This document shows, one piece after another, positions 8,641 through 64,000 of a stretch of DNA of 64,000 bases. Position 1 is the first letter of the stretch. Each line of letters starts with the position of its first letter. The stretch is from the NCBI GenBank assembly GCA_976551045.1, contig CDPCPM010000076.1, positions 26,412,001-26,476,000 of the forward strand. The letters run 5' to 3'. Source of the stretch: Glaucostegus cemiculus (lineage: Eukaryota). A model generated the notes under the pieces. That model saw only the letters and a program-made list of their open reading frames with translations, ran no database searches and had not been told where the DNA came from. The translations under genes and the position numbers were made by a program.

Positions 8641-8645
8641 TTCAT

Positions 8646-36549: not shown

Positions 36550-36682
36550 AGACACAAGAGACTGTAGATACTGGAATCCGGAGCGAAAAAACAAACTTCT
36601 GGAGTAACTTAACAGGTCAGGCAGCATTGTAGAGGGAAATGGACAGTCTATCTTTTGGGACGAGACCCTTCACATGCACTGG
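36550..36682 (-). mobile_element. 133-nt Penelope-like terminal element with a 15-bp target-site duplication
   Basis: Flanked by ACAAATAAAATTCAG (36535-36549) and ACAATTAAAATTCAG (36683-36697); the body matches 770-905. Confidence 0.75.
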
Positions 36683-37016
36683 ACAATTAAAATTCAGGTG
36701 TACAAACAGATGTTTTTCAACAGACTAATTTTAAATTTGGAGCGTATTGGACTACTACACTTTTAAAACTGTTCAATATTGCTAAAGTTAACTTTTATAC
36801 AGACCATCATATTAATGCCAGTATTTGAGAGACAAGAACCATGAAAATGCTGAACAACTTCCTGCATTATATTCTGTACAAGTTGTGTAATACTCAATGA
36901 GCTTTTACACATTACACTGTACATAATTCAAGCAGGTAGTGTAGTTAAAAATTCTGATTAGTGCTTTCAAGATTAAACAGATTGGTACAATATCATTAAC
37001 TTTGTTTAATATTTAC

Positions 37017-37150
37017 CCAAGCAACATAAAAACACCTGCAGGCATCAAGAGAATCTCATTGCACGCGATGAACTTGAACAGGATCTGCTGGTGCATTGTC
37101 ATTTTGTCTAAGAAGGATCGCATCCATGGTATGGAATTAGGGCCAATAAT
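37017..37150 (-). CDS. TMEM33: TMEM33-family coding exon (equivalent to exon 5, 134 nt)
   Basis: ...ttcttgtttcttttattgtag|ATT ATT GGC CCT AAT...ATG TTG CTT GG|gtaaat gives IIGPNSIPWMRSFLDKMTMHQQILFKFIACNEILLMPAGVFMLL(G). It contains the TMEM33 motif KFIACNEI.LMPA, has a strong polypyrimidine tract, and is in frame with the previous exon. Confidence 0.95.
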
Positions 37151-39042
37151 CTACAATAAAAGAAACAAGAAAAATTACTAAATTTACTGACTGACTGTTG
37201 GCTTAATTATCGTCCATAAAAATCAAACTACTTAACAGTAATATCATACTTGAGTGCACTGTAGAGACATGTACAAAATTACAATGCATCTTCCATACAT
37301 TGCAAGGTAATACACTTCAAATTAGAAATTATGAAAATCTTTGATGTCTTAAAACATTGTTATACAGTATTCTTCAAAACCTCTGTACACTATCAAACCA
37401 AAACATATCGACCATTTTTTCCTTTCTATAAATAGTGTTAAAATTATCCTTTTTATATAAACTTAATCATACATATAAACAGATGGGTAGAATGACTTTG
37501 TCAGGAAACAAGTGTCACATTATTTAATGATTAAAAAAAACACACAAAAAAGCTTCACCACTTACTCAGGAATTTTCTAACCAATTATGCACATGTTTCA
37601 TTTGTCGCACTAAAGTTAGAAACCTTGTATTTCTAGAACCTCCATCAGTCCATGTTTTAATTGGAATATGCTGCCTGTTTAAAAACTTCTTTGATCCTTC
37701 ACAATTAGTTTATTTTTACTGCAATGACAAAAATGTTGTCTCTCTCTCTCCTGCTGTAAGTTAAGCTTTAGCTGGGAAACCAAAACAAAGTTCAATGATT
37801 CGTTAATTTTGAAATTTAAAAGAATATGTTACCAAAAAAGCATTTGTACAGTCACACCAAACAGTACATGTTAACACAATTCTAAGGGCTCAAAGTCAAA
37901 TATTGGTGTTTTTCCCAACAAGGTTATAACCAATTCAAAGCTATAAAGCAGGGGATGCCTATTCAGCTGAAAATTATACAGGCTTTAAAATGTGCAACAA
38001 CGGTATGCTTTGAACTTGTGTCTTAATTGTATTCCGGGCTTAATTGGCACATTGTGGTTTGCATGTAGCCATCTTAACGAATGTGATTAAGTCATTTTGT
38101 TCTTATTCCTAAATGGTGTTAGATGGGAAAATAAAAGAAATTAATTATAAAATATAATTACAAGATTAACCTGCTAGGGATGCAGGTTATTTCCAACAAT
38201 GCTTAGATTTAACAGAAAAATAAAATCCTGATAGACTTTGACAGGTGTTAACCTACGTCCAGCATCACCTGTGTACTTCAAACATTGGCCTCGATTTGTG
38301 ACCACCAATGGCATAACAGTTGATGGTGATGAAGAATGCTGTCCACAACAAATTTGAATCTTTGGTATGGATTTCAAGGTTTCCTCACAACCTTAGTTGC
38401 TGTCACGTCTAGAGGACTTCTGGCATCTAAGCAACGTGCAAACACATTACTGAGTTCATCAAGACTTCAAAAGCAAGAAGTTAAAAAAAAATTGCCACCA
38501 ACTTTTTAAACATTTCCTATAGCAGGGAAAATAGTTGGAAAGTGCATGTGAAAATTTTATTTTTACATAAGATTAAATTAGAAACTAAAATATGGGCAAT
38601 TTAAATATGAATTTTAAAAATGGCATGAATTTTGAATTATTTATCTGGATGAATGATGAGCACACATTTAAAATGAATTATTTTAGGGCCAGAGAGGTTG
38701 TCAAGCAGTAATTATGTCTTAATAAGCCTTTAAAACTTCGTTATTCTCATGTAACCAAAGCAAAACATTTTCAGATTTTCAAACAAAAAGCAGCAAAATG
38801 ATTTTGCTAACACTATGTTGTTGCAGGCTCACTGAAATTTGAAGATTATGTTGGGGAAGGCTATAACAGTACACCCTGTGGAGGCGCAGGAAATCACTGA
38901 CCGGAGTTTAAATGAACACATGCGCACTCCAGCTGTCGTATTTCCTGATTACAATCACGACTGTTGGAAGACTCGCTGTTATTCTTGATGCAAATACAGG
39001 CCAAAATATTAAAGCCAACTTAACTGTTAATTGTTAACTTAA

Positions 39043-39173
39043 TTGTTAGATAAGCACATGGAAGAATGTGGAATAGTAGGATATGAGGGTGGAAAGAGTT
39101 AGTTTGGGAGATGTTTGTAGGATGGCACAGCTTGATGGGCCGAAGGGCCTGTTCTGTGCTGTATTGTTCTATG
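39043..39173 (+). mobile_element. CR1/HER1-type LINE 3' tail
   Basis: ttgttagataagcacatggaagaat...ggccgaagggcctgttctgtgctgtattgttctatg is near-identical in layout to 60286-60423. Confidence 0.85.
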
Positions 39174-39409
39174 TAATTCAGTTAAAACTAGTACAGGTTT
39201 TATGATATACATAATGGCTACACAGAAAACCTCCCTGGTCTCACTTCAAGTGAATCAAAAGAACAACTATTTTAATGATCACAATGTCTTGAATGGTAGC
39301 AATTTTCTTAATCTCCATTCTTGAAATTATCAGAAAACTTAATTTATTTAACATGGGATATTGTAACATAGTAGATAAGTTACTAACTAGAGTACATCCA
39401 GATGCCTGA

Positions 39410-39710
39410 ACTATTGCTCTGAAGATACAAGTTCCATTTGCAGCATGGTAGCTCAAGTAATTATTCAGATTAAAATGCTAGCATTATTAATAGTGATGAT
39501 GAAACTACCTGGATATCATTAAAAAAAACCTCATCTACTTCATTAGTGTATTTCAGGAGGACCTCTACTCTTTTCTATTTGACACCAGGCCTACTGCTGT
39601 GGTTGCCCCTCAACTATCCTCCAAAGTAGATGAGCAATTACAAGCATCCATTTCAGGAGACAATTAGTGATGGACAATAAATGCAGGCCTTGCTAGAAAC
39701 ATCCACTTCT
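39410..39710 (+). mobile_element. Old SINE-like repeat (same family at 42170-42375 and 56730-57110)
   Basis: The copies share gaaactac..at..taaaa..c..ttcact..tcc..aggga..gactcca..gttgactcttaact..caattag.gatgg.caataaatgc.ggcct. Confidence 0.5.
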
Positions 39711-41283
39711 ATTGGAGTATAAACAAAATCAATGGCATAAACTTTTACAGATGCAACTTGAAGGTTTCCTTCCTCAAATCTTATCAAACCGATACAGAAT
39801 TAAAAAAAATAGAAACCAAAATGTTTCTGGGAAAGGGAAATGGGAAGCCGGCTATCGGACAATGGATACAACTGATCTTGAGGAACTGCAAAACTCTCAT
39901 ATAGACACCAAAACATACAAAATGGTCAACACTAACCAGGTGATTAAAAGTAAACAAAATACTTGTGAAAATTAGAAAAAGATAGAAAAAAAGAGAAAAG
40001 AACCACTCAGTCCAATGACCTTTCCCTTTAGTATTTTAATTAAGTCATTCAGATATAATTGCATCTTGAACTCTTGTAATATCTCACTGTTTACCCGCAA
40101 ATCATTTCTAACAGTTTACCACCCAAGATATCTTACAGATGTGTTAAGTCCACTAGCATTAAATCAAATAGGAAGTTCCTTAATGCAGCTTGCCTGCAGA
40201 TCTTTCAAACAATATTTGGTGTAAAATGCTGCCTTAGCATTTTTTTAAACTTAAAAACAAGTTGAAGTTTTTCCTGATCTTCAATTATGACTATTGACTT
40301 TATGCTAGGGGTCATTCTTGTTGCTGTTATCTCTAATCTATCCAATGCTGGGTCCATCTTTTCTCCAGTAGAACCACCAGCATTATGTGAGTTGTGATTA
40401 ATGCATTACATTTATAACATTCCATTTCGTTTCCACATTATCTTAACACTGAAATTAAACAACTTGCCTTTTGTTTCCATAGTCTCCTGTACTTATTTCC
40501 TGCATTGCATACCAATTCTCTTTTCACTTTATGCAATGCTGCATAATTTGGTTTGCTCGAGTAAAAATTCATTTTGACTGCCTATACATGAACATCACAA
40601 ATTTGTATGGTAATCTTTAACTGCATGCTCCACTCATTTTTACAATCACTTGAAAAAGTAACACATTTTGCAATTCTGCATCAATTGAAACTGTGTATTT
40701 GACAAGGATCTCATTGATATGGTAAGAGAAACGATTTAACATTACCACCATCATTGCCCACTAACCCCACCCATCTCTAACCAAGCCAGTACACCAGTGT
40801 CATGGGGGAGGAAATCACAACAAAATAAAATATAGGCGAGTGTGTTCACATTTCACAATCATTTTCAGCATTTGCACCAGCAATTTTTTCTCCCACTTGT
40901 CAACTCTCTGACTGAAGCCCAATTTTAATCTCTCTCTACATGAGGCACAAAGGAAAATTTACAATGTGACCTTAACTGATTCCAGAGAAAAGTAACAGAT
41001 GGAAATAGTTTCACAATTATTCTTGCCCAGTTTATACTGTTGATAATCAGCCATTTGCAAGATACTAATGGAATCAATAGTGGATTTCATCCAATCAGGA
41101 TTATTTGGCTCTCGCACCACATCCAATTTCAGTACTCAAAGTTTACAGCATTTTAGCCAAATTAAGGTTCTTGTCATAAATTACAATTAAATTGAGAATG
41201 GCTTTTGGCAAGTTGTGCAAAAGTTATTATCCATTATACATGCAATTATTTCTGAGCAATAAAGATATCAATGCTGCAAAAAG

Positions 41284-41375
41284 AGAAACAAACTACTGAG
41301 GAGCTCAGTGGGTTAGGCAGCATCTGTGGAGGCAGAAGGATGATCAACATTTTGGGTTGAGACCCCGCCAGGACC
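41284..41375 (-). mobile_element. Penelope-like terminal unit
   Basis: gaggagctcagtgggttaggcagcatctgtggagg..cattttgggttgagaccc, same family as 770-905. Confidence 0.6.
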
Positions 41376-42964
41376 CTATGTATATGCTGTTGATTAGGAA
41401 TAGAAATGAAATGAAGAAAAGTCAACAGGCACAATGTAGAAACATTCTGCATCAACCTATATTGAATGAACATAAATATAGCACAAGAAGACTATGTTCT
41501 GGAAGGTGTCTTGATTACCAACCTCAAATTTTATATCTGCACATTGTTTCATCCCAGAGAATACAAAAAACACATTTTAGCATTCCAAAAATAAAATGAC
41601 AAAAATCAATTTACAATTGTATTTTCCCCAAGACATCAGAGCAAAAACAATTTCATCTTTCCAGTCAGTAATGTTGTGGTGGCAGGCAATAGTAATAAAA
41701 GCTATTGACATACATACCAGTTTGCCATATATGCAGTCTGGAAGCAGTCCTCTATGCTAAATTGGTGTTTTAACTAGATAAAAGCACCAAAAAAGATGAT
41801 CCTATTTCTTCAGCAGAATCAGAAATATCAGCAATAATCAAACATGGCAGATGTGAACTGAAGACTACGAGAAAGAAAAGATCATTTGGATGAACACAAA
41901 TATGATCTCTGATACTAGATGGGGCAAGTGAGAAAAAGGGCAAGTAAGCAGAGAGAACAAAGAGAGAAGGTGGAGTCAATGGGCAGAGGTAGAGGGAGGC
42001 AGGGCCAGGAGGCAGAGGTAGAGGAAAAGAGGTTGGGGTCAGGAGGCACATACTGGAAGTGGAGTGGAGAAGCCAAGATAGACAGAGACACTTCTGGACC
42101 ATATCGGGAGACTTGGGTTTGAACATTATCAAGGAGCCGGGGAATTTAAACTTAAATAAACAAACATGGAATTAAAAATACAAGTGTAAAACTACTCAAT
42201 TGTCATAAAACCCCATGTTGTCCACTCATATCCTCCAGGGATAGAAATCTAAAATCCTTACCCATCAGGTCTTCTGACTCCAGTTTCACCAATATATTTG
42301 ACTCTTAACTATCTCCTCAATTCAGGGCAATTAGAGATGGACACCAAGTGCCATCCACAAGCCACAACTGAATAAATAAGTTAAGAAGAAACAAGCACAC
42401 AAGAAAGGCAGCTTAAAAAAAAAATATCTTCAAAATGCACTTTCTGGAATACGACTACTACCTACTGAGAATGTTATATTGTTCTCAAAATCAGTTGCAA
42501 AAGCTTTTGGAAATAATGAGTTAGAACCAGATACAAATACATTAAGTTGCATTATGGGAAAGTCTCAATTTTTTTTTGCAGAATGCCCAAAATTTAAAAC
42601 TAAATTTAATAAGATTGTAATTGTTTTATATACTTGGAGTCAAACAAATATCAATATATTTAGTCTGATTGATGATAGACAGTGCATTGAATTGATATGC
42701 TTTACAACTTTATAAAAAGTTTGCACATGGAAGTCTTCACACCATCAACAGTAAAAAATATAAAGAATCATTAATACCAAATATAATTGATTGCAATATT
42801 CCCGACTGCAAGCTTTGAGTTCACAAAGGCACAAACCAAGTCCTCAGTTGCACAAGCTCAGGTTTCATGCATTTTTTTTAAAATAATTGTGTGCATTTTC
42901 TTTTAAACATTCCTGCTGCATAGAAAAATGTCACTTCCACAACCAAAAATGTTTGACACCACTG

Positions 42965-43475
42965 TTGATGTCAGCTGTAACTTGTAGCACTCTTGCTTAA
43001 GTGAGAGTATTGAGAATTCAAGTCTCACTCCAAAGAATGGAGTATAAACAATTTAGGCTGGCACTGTCAAAATTGTCTCTCAGACAAAGGACCTTGGGCC
43101 AGTCTGGTCTTTAAAGGGGGTGAAAAAAAATAACACTTTTTAAGAATAGCAAAGAAATTGGCCCAAACTGCACATACGGAAAACACTCAATGACAAAGGG
43201 TTGCAGGCCTGAAATGGTAACTGCTTTTCTTTCCACAGTTGCTGTCTGATCTGCTGAGCGATTCCAGCATCTTCTGCTTTCATTTAAGTTGTTACCAATA
43301 TCCTGGTCAATATAAATCCCTCAATTAACACAACCAAAAAGTTTATCTTGAAATCTAATGGGAGCTTGCTATGCATAATTGTCTACTGTGTATATTGAAA
43401 CAATGATCACATTTCAAAAGTATGCCACTGCTTTATAGCATGTGGAACATGCCAGAGATCCATGAAAGGGTCAAA
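42965..43475 (+). mobile_element. Deu-domain SINE (SacSINE1/AmnSINE1-like) interrupted by a Penelope-like unit at about 43170-43287
   Basis: tRNA-like head (gtagcactcttgc..ttcaagtctcactcca), Deu-like core tcctggtcaatataaatccctcaa..tgggagcttgctatgcataatt..acatttcaaaagta, and tail ..catgaaagg. The nested unit is the reverse complement of the 770-905 family. Family assignment is from memory. Confidence 0.6.
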
Positions 43476-46400
43476 ATAACCATGTCATTTTCCTTTGGAA
43501 AGTGAATGACAAATGCTAATAGCATTTCAATGAGCCTGTCTATTTTAATGGAGTGCACTAAACAATTCTGCATAGACCAAATCACTTTGAAAATAGCAGA
43601 AAGAGTAATGTCAAATGATCAGATGAAGTTTCCATTTAAAATTAACAATACCTATTTCAAGATTCACAAAGTTAATAAAGACTACAGGGGTTGAACTGTA
43701 TTTAAAAGAAAAGAGACTCTTCATCATAACTGGTTTCTTCAATTTACTTCTAGCTCAGCTTGGTTCCTTCAGAAGCCACTTCACAAAAAATTGGTCTGGA
43801 TGTTGCTCCTAAGTGCTGGCTGTTCCTCATGGAACTACAGGCGTTTGGCAGAATTTCGAAGGTTTTAGGATTTCTTTTTGACAATGTTTTCCAAAATTGT
43901 ACTTTATTCATAAATTTTGCAATATACAATACAGGATATTTGTCATCATTCCCTGTACCTAGAAGATCATTGTTTAAAATGTTTACATTTTGTGAACATG
44001 GTAACAATTTGTTTCTCCCCTCAAACATTCCATCAACAATCAATTTGAGGGTGTTTTTTTTTTAAACACAGAGCCTAATCCCTCAGTGGTGGGGCTTAAA
44101 TTTATGAGCTTTTGCAGTGGCTGCACTAAGCCTCAATGCACAGTGCTACATTTCAGTTTGTGCAAATTTTGATTGTGGACAGTTCCTGCACTGGAAGTTC
44201 ATTAAGTTTTGGGCAGACCAAATTGCACCTTTCATCAAGCTAATGATCTTTGAGCAATAGTGGATGCCTGTCTTAGGATGTGTCCCTGGGAACAGTTCAG
44301 AGTCCTATGGTATACTTCATCACAACTCGAGGAATCTTATTTACAAGTAATGTGGGCTTTCTGGATTTGGCTGTGTTTGCAAGGAATGAATTCAGTGGGC
44401 AGCAAGCACAGGTGCTGTAAAACCTCAGCCATTGTTTCTTTCAGATAGTTCAGCTAGTCAGTTTGCAATGCATGCCAAGATAGTAGTAGGCATCTAATCA
44501 GGAACCTGGAGACAGGATAGGCTTGATACCGATCCAGTTGGTTGATCAGTGGGAGAACTATAGTATTAAGCATTATTGCTGGTTATAAATATTTCAGGTC
44601 ACATAATAGCAAGCACACATGGCCAAATTTACCATATTGTGATGTCATACAGACAATGACGTAACATTTTATTTAAGTCTGCTATCACACCATGACAGAA
44701 CTTGCTTTTAGTGTAAAAGCACATGATGGTCGTACTTGTCTAACCAACTACTTCTACAGAAAACCTGGATAGTTTGCCACAAATTTGGGAAACGAGCAGG
44801 GCAAAAACAAAATGGGAGCAGACCCTTGAATCACTGCATACATTTCTAAGTCAAACTAGGTTACATTTTTAAAGCATGTGCAGAATAAAGAAGATATGAT
44901 TAATAAGAAAATTCACTTTCCTTGAAAATGTGAAAGAATTTAAATCATTATTTTAATTGTCAAATTCAATTTATACCAGTTATGAAAGAGTGAAAAAGTG
45001 CCACTCATGATCATAACTGACTGCATATCTATTATTTACATAGAGAATATATAGAAGAATTGACAGTCTCTCCAGGGTAAGGTGGTGATGAAATAAAGGA
45101 AACAGATAAAATTCTCATTTGGCCCAAAATAAATCTCTCAATACAATTGAACTGCAAAAGCAAGATCCAGGCCAAGTGACAAGCTGTGCTTCTGTACATG
45201 AGAAATTATAGTTTGTGGAAAATCTTACAACTTTTAAATTCTTCCATGATGGATGGTGACAAATAAAAAGAAAATACAAATTACATTTAAGTAAATAAGT
45301 TGCAAATTACTTAATATACAAGACAAATTTATTATAAGAAGAAATGAAATTGCTTACACCAGAAGTGCTGCCCCATCTGTAGGTCATTCTATTACTTTCA
45401 AAGATTAAAGCTATAAAATCTCCATTTTCTCACACCAAGGGCAAGTAAATTTCAAGCTTGAAAAAGTAATAAAACTTGTCAATATTTCCTGAAAATGAAA
45501 TTAACTGTGTGCCAAGATATTACAAGTGATAGACGAGTTTGAAAAAAACCAAAAAAATGTTAATTTCACTTAAACCACAGGGAAGAAAAATCTTTGAAGC
45601 AGTGTGCTGAAATGTGAAGAAAGCAGTAAATGTCTTGGCTTACTGGTAAAAAAAAATGGAGTGGATTTAGCACTGAAAAACCAGGAGATCCACAACAAAA
45701 GCATTGTTCGTTACATGTGACAATTTTCAGAGTCGGTGAGCATGGGACATAGCCTCACCAGCTGTCAAAGGCATTCTGAAATTGTAGCCAATCACTTGTG
45801 CTTGGAGCAGTCTTGAACTTCACCAACAGGTTGGAAGCTGGGTTCCCATTGGAAGACTATGCCTGGGACCATGCTGGAGGAAACAGTGAGGTCCAGAGAC
45901 AAACAACTGACAACCTCAAGTAGCTTGCTGATCCAGCCCATCTGCACTGCACAAGTTACCCCTGCAGTATTAATTGTACTTGAAAACATCACAACCACAC
46001 CACAATAAAAAGGTAGAAAAATATCACAGAACATGGGGATTTCTTTACACGAACATCAGCAGTTGCATGAATTGAGTCAAAACAGTAATTGATGCATTTC
46101 AGAGAAAACTGCATAAACATCAGAAAGGAATCAAGATTGTACTGAGAAAGTTAGAAGAGAAAAAGGCTGGAAGGAGGGTCGAGTAGAACATGGACTGGTG
46201 TGGCTAAATGATCAACATTTCACACAGTATATAGTTTGGCACAAGTATGTCATCAATGCAGCGAAAAAAAAACCAACTTCTATTAAAACAAAAAGGAGCA
46301 AAGATGAACATTAAAGAAAATGCTGAAGTATTCAATACGAAATCTGGCAGTATAAAGTACTCTTTGCAGTAGCTGACTGCTCATTATTATTCCCATGAAT

Positions 46401-49400: not shown

Positions 49401-50734
49401 GCAATGAAAGAATTTTTACTGCAGTATTTTCAAAAAACAAGCAAGAATTCAAATGGAATTGTGGTCTAAGTGACTGGGACAAATTTTCATACAAATTCCA
49501 AAAGACGTTTTCAACCCATCCAAAGGGCTCTGCATTGAAGAAATGAGTTTAAAGTCATGCAACTTGGTTCTTTACACTCCATTGGAATGCTCATCACAAC
49601 AGCAAATTTGAATCTCCCTTTGGTGTGCAGTGTTTGGTAGGCAATTCTGTTAATCATTATTAACAGCTTCATTAGCATTCCTTGCGATTCCCGTGCATTT
49701 GGCTCCTAAGGATATGCAAGATTATCAACCACCAGTTATACTCACCTCCATATATTCTCTTTCATTGATTCCAATAGAATCAGATGTGGAAAGTAGAACC
49801 AGTGTTGATAACTTTGCTTGAGCTTAACACGACCTGGCTATATAAATTTCTCCCCTAAAATTCTTTAATTGATTAAGAAATACAAATATAATTAGGATCT
49901 GCCCTTTGAGTCTGTTTCACTATTCAATAAGCTCACAACTGATCTGGTAGCCTCTCACCCTTGCTTATCAAATTATCGAAGTCAAGATTCAAAATTAATT
50001 AAACTGTTAACATTTTCAATAATTATTTGCCAAATAATAATTATTATTAATAAGTTGGGGATGGAGTAGTCAAGTCTGATGAAGAAAAAAAACCTGAAAA
50101 AATGCTGAAATATGAAAATTCTTGTTCACAACATTCCTTCACAAGAATGATACATAGCCAAAACAGTATTTTGGTAGGATTAGAGTAGCAAAATCTGGAA
50201 TTTGACAAAAGGCACCCAAATGTGATGATGGGGAGAGGGAATCTTATTTTTTTTTGTTTGCAAACTGCTTCCTATCAACAGTCATTCTTTTGGCTAGAGA
50301 GACTTCTGTCTTTTAGTATTGAGGGAGAAATAAAACAATTAGATTAGAGGTTCTGATATCAAAACATGAAAGAACAAGTAGGAATAACCACAGGTCAAAG
50401 AATGCAGATGGAAAATGGGTGAAGTTGGATAAGAACATGGATGGTGCTGGGTAAGGGCTATGCAACACATAATGGGGACGACGCAAGAACACTATACAGA
50501 TGGTGCATAAATATTTGGTGTTTAGTAAGGTTTTGTTGGCAGGAAGGCAATGAAGCCTTACCCGTGTTAAAAATAAAATTTAGAAAATTAAGCTGAGAGA
50601 TGAAAATAATCCAATTAATGAAAAGATTCCTGATCTGCAAGCAGTTTAGGTTGGAGTATACAAATTATTGAAGAAAATTACAAAGTGATCTAATTTTTCC
50701 CCTCAGTAAAAATTGCCCACTGTATTAAAATTCT

Positions 50735-51060
50735 TCAAAGCACTTCAAGTAAAATGAGTTACATTTCAAACCGAAATTACTTGTTAATAGGGGAACACAG
50801 TAGCCATTTTCTGCACAGATTTTCTACTCCTCCAAACAGCTACAAACTCGATGACTGAAACTGGGGAGAAGAATGTTAACTAGCTCAAGGAGAAATCCTG
50901 TTTTTCTTCTACATTTACCCTAGTCCCACTAGAACAGATTCGTAGAACATCTCAACAAAAGTACGGCATCTCTGACCTTGCATTATTCCGTCAGCTGTGC
51001 TCAAATGTGTCAGCTTAGATTAATTTTAATCTTGATGTAAAACTCTTGCCACCCTCAAAG
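50735..51060 (-). mobile_element. Degraded Deu-domain SINE
   Basis: gtagccattttctgcacag, acggcatctctgac..tgca and gtgtcagcttagatt resemble the inverted SacSINE1-type sequence and parts of 42965-43475. Confidence 0.45.
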
Positions 51061-53222
51061 TCAAAAATATTAAACACTTCATAAATCCTACTCAGGAAAC
51101 AAATAATCAAAGTAATGCATTTAGAATCCATTTTTCAGTATTCTGATAGTTAGATCTTAGGAAAATAACCTTTTGTAAAAATTGAGATTCAAAAAATCCT
51201 TTGTAAATATTACAGATATTATGAATATAACGGCACTGCAAATTAAACCTCAACCCGTGGTATTTCATTGTATAAGAGATCATTGTGCTATCTTGAAAAG
51301 TTGAAAGGCTTTGAATTTTATTTTGCAAACCTGCACATTAGAATTTGCTAATGAATAAATCAATTTCTACTGAAGGACAAACCTGACTGAATTATTAAAT
51401 CATACATCAAGTCCAAAGTTGTCACTTCCCAGCTACTGCATTGACAAGCCATATACATTTGTTAAGCATCTGAACAAAAGAGATATACTGCTGTTTTATT
51501 TATTTGGTAGAGTACAGATGGAGGGCTGCAATTTATCAAAATGACAACTAAATCTATCTTGTCATACCTATAGCTATAATAAGAGTGTGCTGAGATCAAC
51601 AAGTCTTTTCTTCAAAATTACTGATCTGTAAATTGCCCTTGACTGTTGTGGCAAATAAAAATCACTTTCCTCTGTCAATCTGGATCTTGCAAACATGACA
51701 AACATTTAGTACCTACAAAAGAAAGATTGCTAAGTATAGCATTTTTTAAAAATTATTTGCATTAGCTGATATTAGGGCATGACTAGCAGACAAAACTTTC
51801 AGAATAAATTGGGATTTTTCCAAAAGATTTCAAATGCACACATTTCCAGTGATATTAGAAACACATTTTGCTCAGCTTAATTATATTCAAGTTCAAGGAG
51901 TTAAATGTTAATTCTACATATGATCAAATAATTAGTGTATTATTGAAAATATCATCTTTGAAGCAATAGGATCTCAACTGATTTGTTTCACCACCTCGAC
52001 CCTCCCCCTCCTCCGATTTTCTTTAAGATCCACAAGTCTTGTTCTTGATGATCAAGCTTGTTAGCATTATTAATTAAAATGAAAATGCTGGAAACATCAA
52101 GGAGGTCAGAAAGCATTCAAGGAAAGCGAAACAAAATTAACCTTTCCAGGTTCATGGTTCATTGAAGAGATCAACAACTTGAAATACTGGGCTGGATCAC
52201 ACTTTTGGCTAGCTGGTGGATCCCCAGAGAAGTATCAGATGGCTGCAGTGTGCATGTCAGTGCATTCCAGACTTGAGCATCTGTGCACTGCAGAGTACAC
52301 AATGAGCTGGAGGTCAAATGATGGTGTGAACAGCCTCCCACGCTGCTGCTGGACTCAGCACTTCATACCTGGCCTCTCAGCTATATACCAGAGAAATTAA
52401 TGGGACTAGCAAACTTCTCTTAAAAAAATTAGTGATATTGGATGTTTTCTACAAAATATTGTAATTATTATTTTTAAAATTAATTTATCCAAGTTGAATG
52501 TTAATTTTTTCATCATCAGACATTTAGAAATAGTGGAAAAAGGCTTTACACCATGAGTTATCAGAGGTCATTGAGGCACCCTTAGGCATGGCCTTGGCCT
52601 CCACTGCTGGCTTCCTGGTCACAGCTCATGGACTGCTCCACAGAAAAGCTTCTGATGAGATTGGCAGGACATGGGAGCTGAGCAGCTGCAAAAGATAGGT
52701 GTGACTTGGGATATCCAGTGAAAGGCAAAAGCAAGATACATGCTGAGTCAGCACAATGCAGCCCAATAAGGGGTGTCTCTACAGATACCACATCGGCTGA
52801 GTACTCCAGCATTTTGCATTTTCATTTCAGATTTCCAACATCCATAGTATTTTGCTTTTGAGAATCTTTAGCCATGGTTTTGCTTACAGTGCTTTATTTC
52901 TTGTGGTAATACCCTGAATTTATGATGAAGAATGTAATAACAAGAAACAGTAAACTTTCATTTATCTAGTGTTTATACATCAGAAGTTCACATGCAATTG
53001 GCAAAGTTTTAAGAATTAGATTTATTTTTGCTGTACTTTACATTTACACTGTTTAGCCTTAAAATATGGAATTGCAGTGTTAAACAAAGAAATTTAAAAG
53101 CAAGAAGATGTATAGTTTGGCAATTTAGAGGTTTAGACATTAATACAAGCGTGTGATGAGCAATTCTCATGCAATCCCATTCCCCAGGGATGCTGATTAG
53201 CTGAGATTATGGTGTAGATGGA

Positions 53223-54395
53223 AAAGAATATGAGGATTAAGCAAAGTCAGCATGGATTAAATGAAAGAAAAAAAATCACGTTTGACTAAACTGCTGGAGT
53301 ATGTGGCAGGATCCATTCAATGCAATGTACTTTGATTTTCAGAAGACGTTCAATAAGGTCCCACACAGGCTGGTCAACAAGGGTAGAGCACACAACATTG
53401 GGGGGTAATATAATGACATGGACTGAGAATTGGTTATTGGACAGGAAGCAGTGTGGATGAGGGGCACTGCAGGGATCAGTATTCAGCTATTCACAATTTG
53501 CATCAACAGTTTTAACAAGGGAGCCAAATGTCATTCTCCAGTCTGTTCAAAATACAAAAGTAGGTACGAGTATAATGGTGGGAGTTTGGGGGGGGGGGTT
53601 TGCAGGGAGGTTGGTAGAAGGTTGCTGGGAAAAGACAAGTTGAAGATAGAATGAGTGAGAAAGCCAGATGGAATATTATCTGGAAAAATATGAAGTTAAC
53701 CATTTTGGAGCACAATGACATTTTTTTTTAAATGATGAGCGATTGGGTAATGGTGATGTTAAGATCCTCAAGCATCCTTGTACTCAAGTCACTGAAAGCC
53801 ATCAAGCAGTTGCAACAATCAATTAGGAAAGCAAATGATATGTTGGCCTCAATCTTGAGAAGATTTAAGTACAGCTGTTTTAATGCAATTACAGAGGACC
53901 TTGGGGAGATCATACCTACAGTACTGTATACAGTTTGGTTTCCTAATCCAAAAAAATACATTTGTCACAGAGGGAGGGGAGCAAAGATCCACTAGATAGG
54001 TTCCTGGCATGGCACTTTTGCCATACGAGGAGAGATTTTCTAGACTTTAGAAAAAATAAAAAGGGAGATCTCACTGAAGCTTAAAATTCATATATAGTTT
54101 GGCAGGCAGACATTCTTCGGGCTGTGGAGTCTAGAATCTAGGATCACTGGCTCAAATAAAATGTGGATAATTTAGTACTGAGAGGAGAATAATTCCCCTT
54201 CCCCCCACCCCGAGTGGTGAATCTTTGGAATTACTTAACCTGACTGAAAGCTAAATCATCATATCAATTTATTTTTGGATATTAGGCAAATGAAACAGTA
54301 GTGAAAAATGGCTTTGAGGTAGAAGACTAGACATTATCTTGATGATTGGTAAAGCAGGCTCATAGGGTCTCTGACTGGTACTATTTCTTAGGCTC
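53223..54395 (+). mobile_element. Old CR1-type LINE, internally deleted
   Basis: IKQSQHG, KSRLTKLLE, YFDFQKTFNKVPH (RT motifs), QQSIRKANDMLA, and 3' gagtggtgaatctttggaatt. Confidence 0.8.
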
Positions 54396-55335
54396 TTACA
54401 AGATACTCTGGAATAGGGTCACGAGGTTTAGTGACAAAGGTGAAGCTGAACTTTGTCTGACGTGGCCCTTTAAAGGTCTTTACTCATGCAATCTTAGGGG
54501 CAAACTTCCTAATTGCAGAAAACATGTTATTTAAACGATTTTGCAAATCAGTGAGCCTAATTACAAGGCCATTTTACTTGCTCATGAATCTCAAGCTTCT
54601 GGTCTTGGGAGCAGGCCAGGTTCTGAAGGTCAAAAAAGACACCATAGAATGAAAGGCATTTTTGGGGGAACACTTGGAAACAAAATAGATTCAATTTGTC
54701 TGGATTTATTTGGATTAATAAATCAATTTTTAAATGGCCATGTTTCTAACATAAAAGGCAGATTATTGAAATAGCTTAAAACTTTTATCCCTCTTGATTT
54801 TCTCCAAATATGATTTAGCCAGTTCTTACACTTGGTTAAAGGATACAGTACATTATACCATTTGTGGAGCTAATAAGCACTAAATGTACCACTCACAGGT
54901 AGTTCCCCTGTGCTTAATGATAGACACTGGCTCTCGGTCAATTCAAACATTGATTTTAAAATTCACACACCAATTTTTAAATCCATGCCTCTTGCTCTTT
55001 CCTAACCCTGTAATCTCTTCCACTCTTCAATCTTCTGAGATATAGGCACCATCCAAATCTGGTGTTCGGATGATCTCCAAATAAAGTGGCCCCACGATCA
55101 GTGGATATGTATTCATTACTGTGGGCCTGAGCTCTGAAATTCCCTGCAGAAACTTCTGACACTACTTTTAAGTGTTCATTTAAATCTCTCCCTTCAAACA
55201 AACTTCTGGTAAACAGTCATGATCTTTTTCTTAGGCACTCAGCATCAGCTTATGCTTGATAATGCTCCTATAGGATGCTTTGGAGTATTAAAAGGTGTTA
55301 TATAAATAGAAGTTGTCATTGTTGTTGAAGAGGTT

Positions 55336-55357
55336 CCCCCCCCCCCCCCCCCCCCCC
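55336..55357. repeat. C22 homopolymer (G22 on the transcribed strand)
   Basis: Read directly from the sequence. Confidence 0.9.
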
Positions 55358-57342
55358 AGAGGACTGTTATTATATTACAAGTAGATCTCCCATACAAATG
55401 CCTCTCCTAAGTTATGAGTTATGGGGTCCTAATGATCAATGAAACAAAATCTATAGGGATGAACACAACTGGCAGTCAATATTTGTGCACATTTAACAAA
55501 GAAAGAAAACACAACTTTCTACCCCATGAGGTTTTGCAGCTCTTGATATTGCTATCCCCCACCGTGAATTTCATTAAACCTAACTAAAAGGTATATCAAA
55601 TTTTAGATGCACAAATTAAGCTCTTAATTTGAGAAGTTTAAAGAATTCTACATATCTGTATAAATAACCTACACACATATAGGATAATTATCTTAATCAT
55701 ATAAATTGATAGTTTTTGTTGAACGAACTGCTCTGATGTGAATGCCAAGTTAAATGCAAAATCTTGCTTAAAATTACTTAAGTTTAAAACAAAAAGCTTG
55801 TGTTACGAACTTAATTCTACACTCACAACTAAATGTAACTCATGGACTGACTTATGAGGGAATGAGTCATGTTAATATATAGATGTTTGTGGTAAGGATC
55901 ATAAATTATGTATTGGAAAAAACTCCAGAACCAGTAGGACTTGATGATTTGAATTTGAGAAGCCTGATTATTAAGTACAATAAATTTCTGGTAATCTGGC
56001 ATGCTAGGAACTTTAGTGGTGCCAAACAGGTAGATTTTCAAGAATACTGGATACTATTCCTATTAATACCTCTACATTATTTCAATTGATTTTGTTTCAG
56101 ACATTACAGGGCATGATAAATTTTCCAATGAACCAAGTAGAAAGGGAGCACAGCAAACATTATCTGGTGAACCAGATGCTGAGCTATTGGGATTTCCAAT
56201 AGTCAAATAATGGACTAACTATTCCAATAAAACTCTGGTACAAACAGTGAAGGTATAACACGCAATGGGAAAATATAATGTACCATTCTTTTCCTGAAGC
56301 ATACATTTATAACTTTATGACTCCAAAGCCTGACATTTGTTGTGGATGCACCAGATTAATTCAAGCAGAAATCAGTTTTCTGACAGGCTGGTTTTGTGAG
56401 AAGTTCTGTATTTTCAGTCTCGACATTACTCGAAAAAAAGATTTGATATATATTTCAGTGGAACTTCCAATCTTTTTTTTAGGAGACTTCAAAATTTTCT
56501 TTATAGTGTCAGCATTAGTAAACAACATTCACTAACTCAGCAGCAAAAAAATTGTGAGAACCATTGCTGTTGTGCCCTGATAATATAAACCAGCCATTGT
56601 ATAGATTTGATTTAATTAGGTTGGTTAGGACATTACAAGTGGTAAAAATGACTGAGCACAAGGCTCATCTCAAATGCACCCTCCCTGGCCCCTTAAAATA
56701 GCTTTTCTTTATGTTTATGCCTTTAAACAATATATTACCAGAGTAGCAATTCATAGACTTGAAGTTCAGAGAATACAAATTCAATTTCTACCAGGATAGT
56801 TTGAGCTTGAATTCCATATAATAAACATAATTTTGGAAAACCAAATTGGAACAGCAAAGGGGATCATGAAGGCTATCAGACTATGATTAAAAACTAACTC
56901 ACACTATTGATAAACTGACTATCTCACAAGGTCTGGCTTATACGTCACTCCCTTCTCATCAATATAGTCGACTCTCAACTAACCTCCTGAAGTGCCTTTT
57001 TGTTCTTTCAAATTAACAACAATGCCTCTGGATCAAGGTGGCAGACCACTACCACCCTCAAGGAAATCAGGCCATAGGAAAAAAAAATGCAAGCAACAGC
57101 CAGATCCTAAGAATGAGAAAAAAAGCACATCATTGCCTTTCTGACAAACATGTTAATTCAACCTAATAAGACAGTTGATATTAAACTTCCTACTACCAGC
57201 GCGAAAGATCCCACTTTATTAACCATGCTTTATGCAAACAAAATCTTGCCACTTACAATAAACTTAAGCTTCAACTTTACATTTAACCACAGCGTTGCAA
57301 TAATGTACAGAATTATTAGGAAGAGCATGAGAAATAACTTAC

Positions 57343-57410
57343 ATCTAAGATTTTCCTGCTGTAAGCAGTTGCATGAAGCAGAGAAAACACTGCTACTGGC
57401 ACCAAGCATA
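57343..57410 (-). CDS. TMEM33: TMEM33-family coding exon (equivalent to exon 4, 68 nt)
   Basis: ...atttgtacag|TA TGC TTG GTG CCA GTA GCA GTG TTT TCT CTG CTT CAT GCA ACT GCT TAC AGC AGG AAA ATC TTA GAT|gtaagt gives (L)CLVPVAVFSLLHATAYSRKILD. Human, from memory, is MSIFPVLLFSLLHAATYTKKVLD. Phase 1 fits the upstream exon and phase 0 fits the downstream exon. Confidence 0.93.
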
Positions 57411-58657
57411 CTGTACAAATCTGGATAAGGAAAAGTTTTAAAAACACAAGTCAAAGAATTCAGATAAAGTATAATATAATTGAAAAAACAGCTGTCCAGT
57501 GAGAAAGATTTTGTTCAAACATTTTGACATTTGAAAGGACAGAAGTGAACAGAAATTGCACAACTTCAAATTCTTAAAAGGTGTCTTACTTAACCTCCAC
57601 CCATTCACCAAATTTTTAAAATCTAAATTTACTGGAATGCTGATAGAGCTTCTACAATCTATTGACCCATTCTTTTAAAACAACCTTAAAAATCAAATGA
57701 TATTTCTTAAACACATACTGATATTTTGAATGTGGGTTGATAAATGTTTTTTGCAAACCCATAAAAACTAATCCATGGTTTATAAACAATGACCATCATT
57801 TACCATTTGCTTTAATTTTATCATCAGTCATTATAACAATGTGGTAATGGAGACACTGGGGAAACAACGTCCTTTCCTTATCCCCAATATACTCTTCTGC
57901 AGTTGTTGCCAATTACTACGAAAGTATGGTCCACAGGATCCAGTAGCTTTTCTGTACATAGGGACATTTGCACTGACCTTCAATGGCCTCATGACTGATT
58001 TATCTGTGTTTGGCACATAACCCTCAATACCTCTGAATAACAACTAATTAAAACAAAAGTTAAACTCAGATTATAACTGACATTTGATCCATCATTAGTA
58101 GCTTGTGGAAGAGAACTTGTATTATCCCATTCCCCTGAAATGCTTCCAACTTTTAGACAAACCTCAAGTCCTGGACTCCCCAACTAGCTTCTATCTACCC
58201 AATTATCTTTCCTCAATGTTGTGGAAACTGCATTCAAATTGCCCCCTGAACTCTCTAAATTACAGGGAATAGAGCCCAAACTTGGCAATTTGTTTACCAA
58301 AGCAAGTTATCTTTGTTGTTTGGTCTCACCAACATATGAAAGCATGTTATTTCATAGAAGGGTGAATTGTGTCTTCTTCCAATAGCTATGCATGTACACT
58401 TCACTACAGGAGCTAGTTCAGAGTTAACCCTTAGACTCTAGCTACAGCACAATAATCAAATATTTATTCAAATCAAATGTTTCTAATACAAAAAAAGGAT
58501 GCTCAATTGGTCCACCAACTATTAGATATTTTAGCTCTTAAACTAACGTGTAGATCAGTTATTTGCTGTTAAAACTGAACCATTATACAGAAGTACAGTA
58601 GCCTACCACCTGTACTATCTGTAGAAACACCAGTCAGAGACTGGTCAACAATTTTAT

Positions 58658-58952
58658 AAGATAAGATTTCCTTTTTAGTCACATGTTCATCAAAACACAG
58701 TGAAATGCATCTCTTGCGTAGAGTGTTCTGTGGGCAGCCTGCAAATGTCGCCACGCTTCTGGCGTCTACATAGCATGCCCATAACTTCTTTACCTGCACG
58801 TCTTGGAAAGTGGGTGGAAACCAGAGCAGCCAGAGAAAACCCACACAGACACGGGGAGAACGTACAAACTCCTTAGAGACAGCGGCCGGATTTGAACCCA
58901 GGTCACTGGCGCTGTAAAGCATTACACTAACTGCTACACTACCATGCCTGCC
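58658..58952 (-). mobile_element. tRNA-derived V-SINE, near full length, inside the U12 intron
   Basis: Reverse-complement homologue of 8646-8946 over its whole length. Confidence 0.88.
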
Positions 58953-59929
58953 TTATGTTTACCCTTTCCCTCTGAGCCATCAGGTGTGTAAAATTTGCCA
59001 TAGTCAGCAGATAAATTCTGATTTCCTCACACAGCTCCAAAATTCCAGTGTTATTGCATCTACTTTTGCATTTTTAGATCGCCCATTGCTTTTTCTTTGC
59101 ATGCAAATATTCCTTTTCCTTACCTTCCTTCTTATTTGTCATCAGCCTTCACTGCCTGCTGATTACTGCCTAACACAATTCTCCTTGCTTTCCTGTTTTC
59201 TATAGCCCAGTGTCTCTTTTGATGTTCTTCGTTGATATCTGGTCCTGATTCCTGTTTCCTCCTGAGAACCTATTTACTCTTATCCATTTCCTCAGTGCTT
59301 TCAGACTAATGGACAGAACGAAATTACAAAATATCAATAATTTTGTTTTTAAAAAGTAGAAGTTTATAATAGCTATAGAATCCAACAATTGAACTTTTGG
59401 AGTAGGACAAACTTTTTCTGTTTATCTATTATTCAATTTACCTATAAAAATGCAGTCACTTGTTTATATTAACCATATCTAATTTTAAAGGAATTATTTA
59501 AAGCAACTCAATATTTTCAAAATAAACAGAAGTGTTTAGTATGTATTTTCTTTGGCTTATCCCATTGTAAAAATTGAAAGAACTGTAATGGAGCACCAGT
59601 AACTTTAGACAGCATCAGCAATTCCCCTGCAAAAAGGGAAATCTGTGACCTTGTGTGCCATTGAGATCATTTGCTTTAGGGGCACAAGTGCTTAACATTG
59701 GCTGGTCCTTTTAAAATGGCTACTTGGGTATTCCTATGGGAAGCGAAAAGAAAAACCATGTTTCACGTAAACCTTGTAAATCACTTACCCATTGCAAAGA
59801 TTTTCATTTACACTTTTGTGATGCCAACCCTAGCACCGTTAGAGGTCACACACAGAATAGTGGATTTCACAATCCGACTTTAAACATCAGAATTACATGA
59901 ATAGTTGTATTTTCCCCACATTTCCATTA

Positions 59930-60425
59930 AGATGTGGAGGCATTGGAGACGGTGCAAAGGAGATTTACCAGGATGCTGCCTGGTCTAGAGAGTATGGATT
60001 ACGTGGAGGGACTAAAGGAGCTAGGGCTATTCTCACTGGAGAGGAGGAGGATGAGGGGGAGACATGATAGAGGTATACAAGATATTGAGAGGAAATGATA
60101 GAGTGGACAGCCAGTGCCTCTTACCCAGGGCACCAATGCTCAAGACAAGAGGACATGGCTTTAAGGTATTGAGTGGGAAGTTCAAGGGTGTTGTCAGAGG
60201 GAGGTTTTTCACCCAGAGAGTGGTTGGTGCATGGAATGCACTGCCTGGGGTGGTGGAGGCTGATACGTTGGACAAGTTCAAGAGATTGTTAGATAAGCAT
60301 ATGGAGGAATTTAAGATAGAGGGATATGTGGGAGGAAGGGGTTAGGTAGTCTTAGGTGTGGTTTGAAGGATGGCACAAAAATGGTGGGCCGAAGGGCCTA
60401 TTTTGTACAGTATTGTTCTATGGTT
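59930..60425 (+). mobile_element. Relatively young CR1/HER1-type LINE 3' ~500 nt, inside the U12 intron
   Basis: [68 protein letters not shown] is the CR1 ORF2 C-terminus; tail gtattgttctatggtt. Confidence 0.92.
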
Positions 60426-60930
60426 AGTTGCTGGAATATTTCTTTACAAGTGCAGATAGAAAAGGAAATAGCTTAGTGCAACAACAGAATCCAATAGTGT
60501 GAGAATTAAAGCATAATCAACTGGCACAAGGGTCAACCAAGTCCGTGCCAAGTTGCGCAACGTAATAAAGTAATAAGTAGTGCCATTTTACACAAACAAC
60601 TTAAGTAAATAAAATTTACAATGTTAATAGGGAAAACTGATTTCTTTATTGCTACATATTTCACTGAAAGTGTGCCTTTTATTCAAACATTTGAGTTATT
60701 AGTCAGAACTCCAGTATTACACTAGTATTATGAACTTACTGGGAAAAAATAATCAGGTAACAAGAGGTGGTTAAAATAAAAAGCAGAGGGCCACTAAAGA
60801 TTAGTCTCCTCAGCAAGACCTTATGGATTCCTAGACTTTTTTGTTTAAAACCTTATTAAACCTTCCCATAAGATTTGATTGCTGTCAAAGAGGTAACTTA
60901 GTTTATACAATGAAGCATAGTGAAGGATAC

Positions 60931-61118
60931 ATGTAATGGGATAGGAAGTAATAAAGATAAGCGAGTACAGCAAGTAGTGACAGCTATCCTCCAGGAGTGC
61001 CTGTGTGATATAGGCTCTGCTGAACTGGAATCTGGGAAGCCTTTGGTGCAGTCGGCAGGCACTAGTCAGGGCATTAGCCAGTAATGCTCTCTGGTAGAAA
61101 TAGCCACCTTCAGCAACT
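60931..61118 (-). CDS. TMEM33: TMEM33-family coding exon (equivalent to human TMEM33 exon 3, 188 nt)
   Basis: Reverse complement reads ...tttcttgcccatag|A GTT GCT GAA...ATT ACA T|gtatccttca. It translates as (G)VAEGGYFYQRALLANALTSACRLHQRLPRFQFSRAYITQALLEDSCHYLLYSLIFITSYPIT, matching the TMEM33 motifs FYQRALLANALTSA and EDSCHYLLYSLIF. Orthologue versus paralogue is not resolved. Confidence 0.95.
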
Positions 61119-62891: not shown

Positions 62892-62914
62892 AGCAGTTGA
62901 TCGAAATTTAAACG

Positions 62915-63950: not shown

Positions 63951-64000
63951 CCCATCTCCTAGCCCAATATCCTCTGATTCTAGAAGACACCTGTCAAAAT

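What the first reader, a model, noticed from the sequence alone, without database searches (positions are those of the whole stretch)
37017..61118. Spliced TMEM33-family gene missed by the ORF track; possibly a divergent second vertebrate TMEM33 paralogue
Seen: three minus-strand exons (188, 68 and 134 nt) with proper splice sites join into an uninterrupted frame of about 130 codons. Known, from memory: exon sizes and phases equal human TMEM33 exons 3-5, and human and zebrafish share SALRLH, AFLAQAL, MSIFPV and NQQNILKF. This copy instead has SACRLH, AYITQAL, LCLVPV and HQQILFKF. Inference: cartilaginous-fish orthologues usually evolve slowly, so this much divergence with intact frame and splice signals suggests a retained whole-genome-duplication paralogue lost from bony vertebrates.
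Basis: partly seen in the sequence, partly recalled or inferred. Interest (0 to 1): 0.7.

Follow-up and report, generated by a model that had tools for sequence, protein, structure and literature searches.

The report
Second TMEM33 gene in cartilaginous fishes
Sharks, rays and chimaeras carry an intact second copy of the ER-membrane gene TMEM33 that likely dates from the first vertebrate genome doubling and was probably lost in bony vertebrates; databases label it only 'TMEM33-like', so it is an unstudied extra member of a known family, not a new kind of gene.

Summary
The three exons belong to an intact gene with seven coding exons (268 aa). A separate canonical TMEM33, 58% identical, lies elsewhere in the genome in PHOX2B-TMEM33-SLC30A9 order. 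The window gene has orthologues in 23 named sharks, rays and Callorhinchus, which NCBI/UniRef label 'TMEM33-like'. Canonical shark and bony-vertebrate TMEM33 group together without it (100/97), and a shark-only duplication is rejected (AU p=0.004). It sits between DACH2- and KLHL4-type genes on a segment paralogous to the canonical locus. Skate chromosome labels (LER12=1beta, LER1=2alpha), GABA-receptor cluster layout and POU4 pairing point to the first whole-genome duplication (1R). RNA of a related species shows it spliced. No bony-vertebrate orthologue appeared in three protein searches, but bony-vertebrate genomes were not searched as DNA. The TMEM33 motifs and predicted helices are kept, so it likely remains an ER-membrane-shaping protein. 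I found no paper describing it, although the skate annotation lists both copies. This scan had no earlier TMEM33 finding, only similar cases for other genes. Verdict: a real, modest new member of a known class.

The parts
60931..61118 (-). Coding exon 3 of 7 (188 nt) of the second TMEM33 gene; carries SACRLH and the EDSCHY motif
   Evidence: RNA loose ends of a related species run from exon 2 into 61118
57343..57410 (-). Coding exon 4 (68 nt); P-x3-F-x3-H-x3-Y motif helix
37017..37150 (-). Coding exon 5 (134 nt)
57411..60930 (-). Intron between coding exons 3 and 4 (3,520 nt, GT..AG)
37151..57342 (-). Intron between coding exons 4 and 5 (20,192 nt, GT..AG)
1..37016 (-). Most of the 39-kb intron to coding exon 6. 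Exon 6 (84 nt, G000:C76:26409784-26409701) and exon 7 (127 nt with stop, C76:26399943-26399817) lie left of the window
61119..64000 (-). Part of the intron after coding exon 2. Exon 2 (95 nt, C76:26477796-26477702), coding exon 1 (111 nt from ATG, C76:26479621-26479511) and a 5'UTR exon ending at C76:26486994 lie right of the window

Best explanation
The window holds the middle of an intact second TMEM33 gene that cartilaginous fishes share; it likely arose in the first vertebrate whole-genome duplication (1R), survived on a low-retention beta segment between DACH2 and KLHL4, and was probably lost in the bony-vertebrate ancestor. Shown: gene structure, two loci per genome, a split older than the shark/bony-fish divergence, paralogous neighbours, splicing in a related species, and strong conservation across chimaeras, sharks and rays. 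Inferred: the 1R timing, the loss in bony vertebrates, and the function. It most likely works as a TMEM33, that is, a multi-helix ER/nuclear-envelope membrane protein whose conserved core and basic C-terminal amphipathic helix place it in curved ER with reticulons and ER calcium channels. After a burst of change on its stem it would have taken a divided share of the ancestral role (other tissues or partners), which is why it was kept.
For: Two complete loci: C76 (268 aa) and C29 (246 aa), 143 of 245 aligned residues identical, 36 of 50 fourfold-degenerate sites different. Orthologues in 23 named chondrichthyan species including Callorhinchus. Tree of 44 proteins: second-copy clade 100/100, canonical chondrichthyan plus bony clade 100/97; same result with amphioxus as the only outgroup. 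A cartilaginous-fish-only duplication is rejected, p-AU 0.0038. C29 order: Kelch gene 12.38 Mb, UCH 13.75, PHOX2B-type 14.08, TMEM33 14.19, SLC30A9-type 14.26, GABA-receptor cluster 16.0-16.75. C76 order: POU4 23.98, DACH 26.07-26.35, this gene 26.40-26.49, Kelch gene 26.72-26.83, GABA-receptor cluster 36.27-36.78. The Kelch exon has exactly 3 matches at E<=1e-8, on C76, C29 and C95. For 1R: the C76 and C74 GABA clusters lack the alpha4/6-type gene that the C29 and C10 clusters have, and the POU4 quartet pairs C76+C95 against C10+C169 at 80/87. Skate supplement: Tmem33-1 beside Dach1-2 on Leri_12C; Tmem33-2 beside Slc30a9 and Klhl5 on Leri_1C; LER12=1beta, LER1=2alpha, LER6=1alpha (PMC10115646). 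RNA of a related species: exon 1-2 joint in 6 and 1 reads in the 2 raw-read runs and in contigs of the 2 contig runs; loose ends match window 61089-61118 exactly. Callorhinchus vs elasmobranch identity is 85-90% for this copy and 87-89% for the canonical copy. The AlphaFold model of the 99%-identical Pristis protein is all-helical, pLDDT 83.5. Family motifs are intact, and the helix at 250-267 has the protein's highest hydrophobic moment (0.50, net +4). 51 of 295 fetched proteins score over 30 bits better on the second-copy profile, all from chondrichthyan clusters.
Against: Immediate neighbours differ between the two loci (DACH/KLHL against PHOX2B/SLC30A9). The nearest paralogous pair is the Kelch gene, about 0.25 Mb away on C76 and 1.8 Mb away on C29, so only broad synteny supports WGD. 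The protein tree cannot tell 1R from 2R: lamprey joins the second copy at only 87/77 and 80/45, and the two alternative placements are not rejected (p-AU 0.19 each). The skate chromosome table carries question marks, and its 2alpha/2beta cells are blank in the F row (I read them as merged from the rows above). C74/C95 and C29/C169 are separate contigs whose linkage was not shown. Absence in bony vertebrates rests on the listed best 120 of 180, 310 and 850 hits in three protein searches; no coelacanth, lungfish, gar or bichir genome was searched as DNA. The two junctions inside the window were not tested with reads, and the reads are from another species. No localisation, partner or tissue data exist for the protein. 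Rate excess over the canonical copy reached p<0.05 in only 4 of 12 non-independent relative-rate tests.
Confidence: 0.75

Rival explanations
1. It is a WGD ohnologue, but from the gnathostome-specific second round (2R), with lamprey TMEM33 an outgroup to both copies.
For: The tree with lamprey outside both copies is not rejected (p-AU 0.19). Lamprey is 63-65% identical to canonical chondrichthyan TMEM33 and 56-60% to the second copy. Beta copies evolve faster (PMC10115646), which fits the long stem (0.53 against 0.19+0.055).
Against: The skate table puts the two chromosomes in the 1beta and 2alpha columns. DACH occurs on C76 and C95 but was not found on C29. GABA-cluster layout and the POU4 quartet pair C76 away from C29.
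Confidence: 0.1
2. It is a small-scale duplication or transposition in a stem gnathostome or stem vertebrate that happened to land on a paralogous chromosome, and was then lost in bony vertebrates.
For: The immediate neighbours are not shared between loci. No TMEM33 remnant was seen in the 600 kb of C95 read around the end of DACH1 (best tblastn E 0.91).
Against: All six coding introns are kept in phase, so it is not a retrocopy. The host contig carries Kelch, POU4 and GABA-receptor paralogues; the Kelch and GABA-receptor genes have counterparts on the canonical contig itself. Landing on a paralogous segment by chance is unlikely.
Confidence: 0.1
3. The gene persists unannotated or highly diverged in some early-branching bony fishes (coelacanth, lungfish, bichir, gar), so it is not confined to cartilaginous fishes.
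For: PMC10115646 reports 17 ohnologues kept in chondrichthyans plus coelacanth and 24 kept in chondrichthyans plus ray-finned fish, against 19 kept in chondrichthyans alone. My searches were of predicted proteins, with truncated lists.
Against: Latimeria, Protopterus, Amia, Erpetoichthys and Polyodon proteins all fall in the canonical clade. The members listed for their 90%-identity clusters add only near-identical copies. A profile built from the second copy plus lamprey ranked no bony-vertebrate protein above the canonical band.
Confidence: 0.15
4. It is a decaying duplicate, or a passive bystander kept only because it lies in the DACH2 regulatory landscape.
For: It spans about 87 kb against 15 kb for the canonical gene and lies in the DACH-KLHL interval.
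Against: The frame and splice sites are intact, identity across the chimaera/elasmobranch split is 85-90%, and spliced RNA exists in a relative. The one candidate duplicated non-coding element was a dispersed repeat.
Confidence: 0.03

Closest known systems
Vertebrate TMEM33 (Pfam PF03661; this genome's C29 copy; mouse and zebrafish work in PMC6497644 and PMC6374405)
   Same: Same family, same seven coding exons and internal phases, same three hydrophobic segments, EDSCHY, P..FSLLH...Y and YYRF...RY.S.RNPY motifs, and a C-terminal amphipathic helix.
   Different: 57-63% identity. N-terminal tail of 48-55 residues before the invariant Trp (one isoform has 92) against 26 in chondrichthyan TMEM33; lamprey (47-57) and most invertebrates also have long tails, so the canonical copy is likely the shortened one. 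14 fixed derived residues against 2 in the canonical copy, including positions 90, 179 and 188 where 98-100% of 51 outgroups keep the canonical residue. Different chromosome and a roughly six-fold larger gene.
NCBI/UniRef 'transmembrane protein 33-like' of sharks, rays and Callorhinchus (e.g. XP_051877535.1, XP_007890067.2); skate 'Tmem33-1' in PMC10115646 SI Table 10
   Same: These are its orthologues: 99% identity to the Pristis protein over 246 columns, and the same position beside DACH in skate.
   Different: They are automatic labels only. The same 'TMEM33-like' label is also given to unrelated sturgeon, tarpon and invertebrate copies. I found no description of origin or function.
Ohnologues kept in chondrichthyans and lost in bony fishes (19 cases counted in PMC10115646; named examples wnt6b and cspg5)
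   Same: Same evolutionary class.
   Different: TMEM33 is not in that paper's main text or its preprint. The list of 19 genes was not in the supplements I could read, so it may or may not be among them.
Fission-yeast Tts1, and budding-yeast Pom33/Per33 (PMC4230586)
   Same: The P-x3-aromatic-x3-H-x3-Y motif and a nine-residue Tyr-delimited motif have pattern matches here (P136/F140/H144/Y148; Y210-Y218). Per33 is a precedent for a diverged TMEM33 paralogue with different localisation.
   Different: The correspondence is by pattern; Tts1 was not aligned here. In Per33 the motif proline is changed, whereas here it is kept.

Membership tests
TMEM33/Pom33 family (PF03661) | Profile match over the curated cut-off along the domain | tested here: met
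   Exon 3: 85.8 bits; exon 5: 27.2 bits (cut-off 24); the locus covers profile positions 10-239
TMEM33/Pom33 family (PF03661) | Conserved Pro/aromatic/His/Tyr helix motif and Tyr-delimited basic motif (PMC4230586) | tested here: met
   P136, L143, H144, Y210, Y211, R217, Y218 invariant in 91 aligned proteins; motifs located; link to Tts1 numbering by pattern only
TMEM33/Pom33 family (PF03661) | Hydrophobic membrane segments followed by cytosolic helices with a C-terminal amphipathic helix | tested here: met
   Three hydropathy peaks and a helix at 250-267 with moment 0.50; all-helical model. These are predictions.
TMEM33/Pom33 family (PF03661) | ER/nuclear-envelope localisation; binding to reticulons and polycystin-2 | not testable with these tools
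   Needs cell experiments
Orthologue of canonical vertebrate TMEM33 | Groups with bony-vertebrate TMEM33 and lies in PHOX2B-TMEM33-SLC30A9 synteny | tested here: not met
   The C29 copy does both; this one does neither
Vertebrate WGD ohnologue | Duplication older than the cartilaginous/bony split and younger than the amphioxus split | tested here: met
   Vertebrate clade 100/97, canonical clade 100/97, AU p 0.0038 against a chondrichthyan-only duplication
Vertebrate WGD ohnologue | Copies on paralogous chromosome segments | tested here: met
   Kelch and GABA-receptor paralogues on both contigs; skate LER12/LER1
Vertebrate WGD ohnologue | Shared immediate neighbours (microsynteny) | tested here: not met
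   DACH/KLHL against PHOX2B/SLC30A9; local gene order is commonly scrambled in pairs this old (own knowledge)
1R (pan-vertebrate) ohnologue | Split between segments 1 and 2, predating cyclostomes | tested here: inconclusive
   Synteny favours it; lamprey placement is unresolved
Chondrichthyan-retained, osteichthyan-lost ohnologue | Absent from all bony-vertebrate genomes | tested here: inconclusive
   Absent from the listed hits of three protein searches; genomes not searched as DNA
Processed pseudogene or decayed copy | Lost introns, stops or frameshifts | tested here: not met
   Six coding introns kept and an 807-nt open frame
TMEM120/ceramide synthase/ELOVL helical barrel fold | Clear structural superposition | tested here: inconclusive
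   Z 7.3-8.8, rmsd 5.1-6.5, 156-176 aligned, ranks 1-5 of 48,161 chains; Foldseek E 0.88; below the level that is safe for helical bundles

The most novel reading that the evidence does not exclude
TMEM33 has been a hidden 1R pair. Lampreys kept the copy that sharks keep between DACH2 and KLHL4, bony vertebrates kept the other, and only cartilaginous fishes have both. The second copy keeps the ancestral long N-terminal tail and has a remodelled partner surface, giving a natural split of TMEM33's ER-shaping and calcium-channel-regulating roles.
Probability: 0.25. Interest if true: 0.55.

Novelty: new member of a known kind. Interest (0 to 1): 0.38.

Why it matters
TMEM33 is studied as one gene in mouse, zebrafish and human cells, with roles in ER shape, polycystin-2 gating and VEGF calcium signalling (PMC6497644, PMC6374405). 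A second copy conserved across chimaeras, sharks and rays gives a natural variant with 14 fixed changes at otherwise conserved sites, which could be used to map which surfaces serve which partner. It also adds a well-placed marker to the 1R/2R map and warns that lamprey TMEM33 may not be the orthologue of human TMEM33. The impact is modest: retained ohnologues in cartilaginous fishes are an established class, and the gene is already in automatic annotations.

Tried and rejected
(1) Shark-specific duplication: rejected by the AU test. (2) Fast-evolving sole orthologue: rejected, because a canonical locus exists on C29. (3) A 66-bp match between the DACH-KLHL intervals of C76 and C95 looked like a duplicated enhancer but is a dispersed repeat, with all 40 scored candidates matching. 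(4) TMEM33 remnant on C95: none in the 600 kb read (21.0-21.6 Mb), which is only part of the DACH1-KLHL1 interval. (5) The Yip1 family search of the genome gave 0 matches and is uninformative. (6) The protein atlas gave no usable hit for the first exon of the Kelch gene. (7) PDB sequence search of exon 3: 0 matches; Foldseek: none at E<=0.001. (8) The run search listed no holder on record as RNA; raw RNA runs with the same species label were laid instead. (9) The search of 50%-identity representatives never ran, so very divergent relatives were not sought that way. (10) P0015 (grenadier) ranked high because its model repeats the segment; it falls among teleost canonical copies. (11) No hagfish protein was named in the hit lists; the hagfish paper's table lists one TMEM33 (EA27010, chr5), which could not be placed in the tree. 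(12) Literature: searches listed no paper on a second vertebrate TMEM33. The broad searches showed only their top 10-25 rows, and most subscription journals are not held. The whale-shark supplement lumps the family in one orthogroup of 43 proteins from 37 taxa. The catshark supplement and two large skate PDFs could not be read and may bear on expression and on the list of 19 genes. (13) No complex prediction was sent.
Full report
1. Observation. Each is bounded by AG and GT, and they join into 130 open codons. Each matches Pfam PF03661 at consecutive profile positions. The short middle exon is below the family cut-off on its own and was 1 of 88 splice-compatible candidates; homology fixes it.

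2. The whole gene. The window is G000:C76:26412001-26476000. Flanking DNA completes seven coding exons of 111, 95, 188, 68, 134, 84 and 127 nt, an 807-nt frame for 268 aa. A 5'UTR exon ends about 7.4 kb upstream of the ATG, so the gene spans about 87 kb. RNA was laid on the exon 1-2 region outside the window, using 4 runs of a related species (at most 4 samples, 2 studies). The 1,714-nt intron is skipped in 6 reads of X18 and 1 read of X19, and in a 2.1-kb contig of each of X1 and X4. Loose ends at exon 2 (7 and 3 reads) match window 61089-61118 exactly. The two junctions inside the window were not tested with reads, but the orthologous database proteins contain the same joined peptide.

3. 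Two loci. Family and protein searches of the genome give exons of two complete loci, C76 and C29. The other rows are weak (E>=0.2). The C29 gene (246 aa, about 15 kb) has the same internal exon sizes and phases, is 58% identical, and differs at 36 of 50 fourfold-degenerate sites. It lies after a UCH-family gene and a PHOX2B-type homeobox gene and before an SLC30A9-type gene. It is the canonical orthologue. The name PHOX2B and the human gene order are recalled; SLC30A9 comes from the database label of the query P0088.

4. Distribution. The window gene's relatives are 'TMEM33-like' proteins of 23 named cartilaginous fishes, including Callorhinchus; the nearest is Pristis at 99%. Three searches listed their best 120 of 180, 310 and 850 hits. 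In the fast tree of 181 rows (plus the two own proteins; 2 fusion proteins over 460 aa left out), all named bony-vertebrate proteins fall in the canonical clade. Of 295 fetched proteins, 51 score over 30 bits better on a second-copy profile than on a canonical one, all from chondrichthyan clusters; eight more exceed it by only 1-8 bits. Lampreys gave one cluster. Bony-vertebrate genomes were not searched as DNA, so the loss is inferred.

5. Tree. With 44 chosen full-length proteins (LG+C20, 246 columns), vertebrates form one clade (100/97). The second copy is one clade (100/100, stem 0.53). Canonical chondrichthyan and bony TMEM33 are one clade without it (100/97, stem 0.19). A second run with only amphioxus as outgroup agrees. 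Holding both chondrichthyan copies together is rejected (p-AU 0.0038). Lamprey joins the second copy weakly (87/77; 80/45), and both alternative placements stand (p-AU 0.19). After the stem the gene is as conserved as the canonical copy: Callorhinchus vs elasmobranchs 85-90% against 87-89%. Relative-rate tests favoured more change in the second copy in 12 of 12 comparisons, with p<0.05 in 4 (non-independent).

6. Synteny. On C76 the gene lies tail-to-tail after a DACH gene and head-to-head before a Kelch gene. The names DACH2, KLHL4, KLHL5, KLHL1 and POU4F1-4 are my recall of the sequences, backed in part by skate labels. The Kelch exon has 3 matches, on C76, C29 and C95. DACH-type hits lie on C76 and C95. 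Four GABA-receptor clusters lie on C29, C10, C76 and C74. Those on C29 and C10 have beta, alpha4/6-type, alpha and gamma genes; those on C76 and C74 lack the alpha4/6 type (subunit classes recalled). Four POU4 genes pair C76+C95 against C10+C169 (80/87 unrooted; unresolved when rooted on POU3). The skate supplement places Tmem33-1 at Leri_12C 26.43 Mb beside Dach1-2 (25.93), and Tmem33-2 at Leri_1C 71.48 beside Slc30a9 (71.36) and Klhl5 (73.92), with Dach1-1 on Leri_6C. Its Table 3 lists LER12 as 1beta, LER6 as 1alpha, LER1 as 2alpha and LER11 as 2beta, with question marks. The 1-2 duplication is shared with lamprey and the alpha-beta one is not; beta segments keep about 15% of genes against 39% for alpha (PMC7269912). 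So the pair most likely dates to 1R, with this copy a beta survivor. Against this, immediate neighbours are not shared, and no remnant was seen in the 600 kb of C95 read.

7. How it likely works. 32 columns are invariant across 91 aligned family members, including this clade. Three hydrophobic segments, the EDSCHY, P..FSLLH...Y and YYRF...RY.S.RNPY motifs and a basic C-terminal amphipathic helix are kept. The AlphaFold model of the Pristis orthologue is all-helical with a disordered first 26 residues. In fission yeast these motifs and the last helix serve curved-ER localisation, ER shaping and nuclear-envelope remodelling (PMC4230586). Mammalian TMEM33 binds reticulons and polycystin-2 (PMC6497644). 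I therefore infer an ER-membrane-shaping, channel-modulating role with divided expression or partners. The second copy has 14 fixed derived residues against 2 in the canonical copy, and keeps a long N-terminal tail like lamprey and invertebrates. None of the function was tested.

8. What is known. NCBI/UniRef annotate the orthologues automatically, the skate annotation lists both copies, and the whale-shark study lumps them in one orthogroup. PMC10115646 counts 19 ohnologues kept only in chondrichthyans; TMEM33 is not in its text or preprint, and the list was not in the files I could read. Ten literature searches listed no paper on this paralogue. What I saw of each paper: PMC10115646, passages, section 6, supplement file 2 part 1 and search hits; its preprint, passages; PMC7269912, passages and section 7 part 1; PMC4230586, PMC6497644, PMC6374405, PMC9804665 and PMC12841848, passages; PMC8455134 and PMC10972751, supplement search hits only; PMC11979771, search listing only. 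The scan's own notes hold no TMEM33 finding by words, sequence or place, only similar cases for other genes.

9. Verdict. The finding is real and correctly interpreted: an intact, conserved, probably 1R-derived TMEM33 paralogue of cartilaginous fishes. It is a new member of a known kind. Interest 0.38.

Noticed in passing
AlphaFold model of P0208 (Pristis orthologue), residues 31-228: Ranks 1-5 of 48,161 chains are TMEM120A and ceramide synthases (Z 7.3-8.8, rmsd 5.1-6.5), with ELOVL7 at rank 10. Foldseek also ranks TMEM120A first and Lac1 third, without significance. TMEM33 has two invariant histidines (H116, H144). This is a weak, family-wide lead that TMEM33/Pom33 shares the acyl-CoA-binding helical barrel; one literature search listed no paper making this link.
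   Followed up: partly
window 62453-62891: Perfect 24-bp minisatellite, 18.3 copies at 100% match, in the intron after coding exon 2; it is open in several frames and matched only this place in the genome search. Probably a recent expansion.
   Followed up: partly
G000:C76:23975298-23977260 (L038): A fourth POU4 gene; the genome has POU4 genes on C76, C95, C10 and C169. Humans have three (recalled).
   Followed up: partly
G000:C29:19208737 and 19242857: Two adjacent homeobox genes, possibly the GSX2/PDX2 ParaHox pair of cartilaginous fishes (identity recalled, not checked).
   Followed up: no
G000:C76:26595257-26599153: A 1,299-aa open frame in the interval between this gene and the Kelch gene, probably a retroelement gag-pol; observed only.
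   Followed up: no
window 6934-7618 and 60033-60345: Short frames resembling a Tc1-type transposase remnant and a CR1/LINE reverse-transcriptase tail in the introns (resemblance recalled).
   Followed up: no
P0085, P0088: Database proteins that fuse TMEM33 to SLC30A9 in camel and antbird, probably mis-joined models of the adjacent genes.
   Followed up: no
PMC10972751 supplement file 5: The single hagfish TMEM33 (EA27010, chr5) has its highest expression in ovaries.
   Followed up: no
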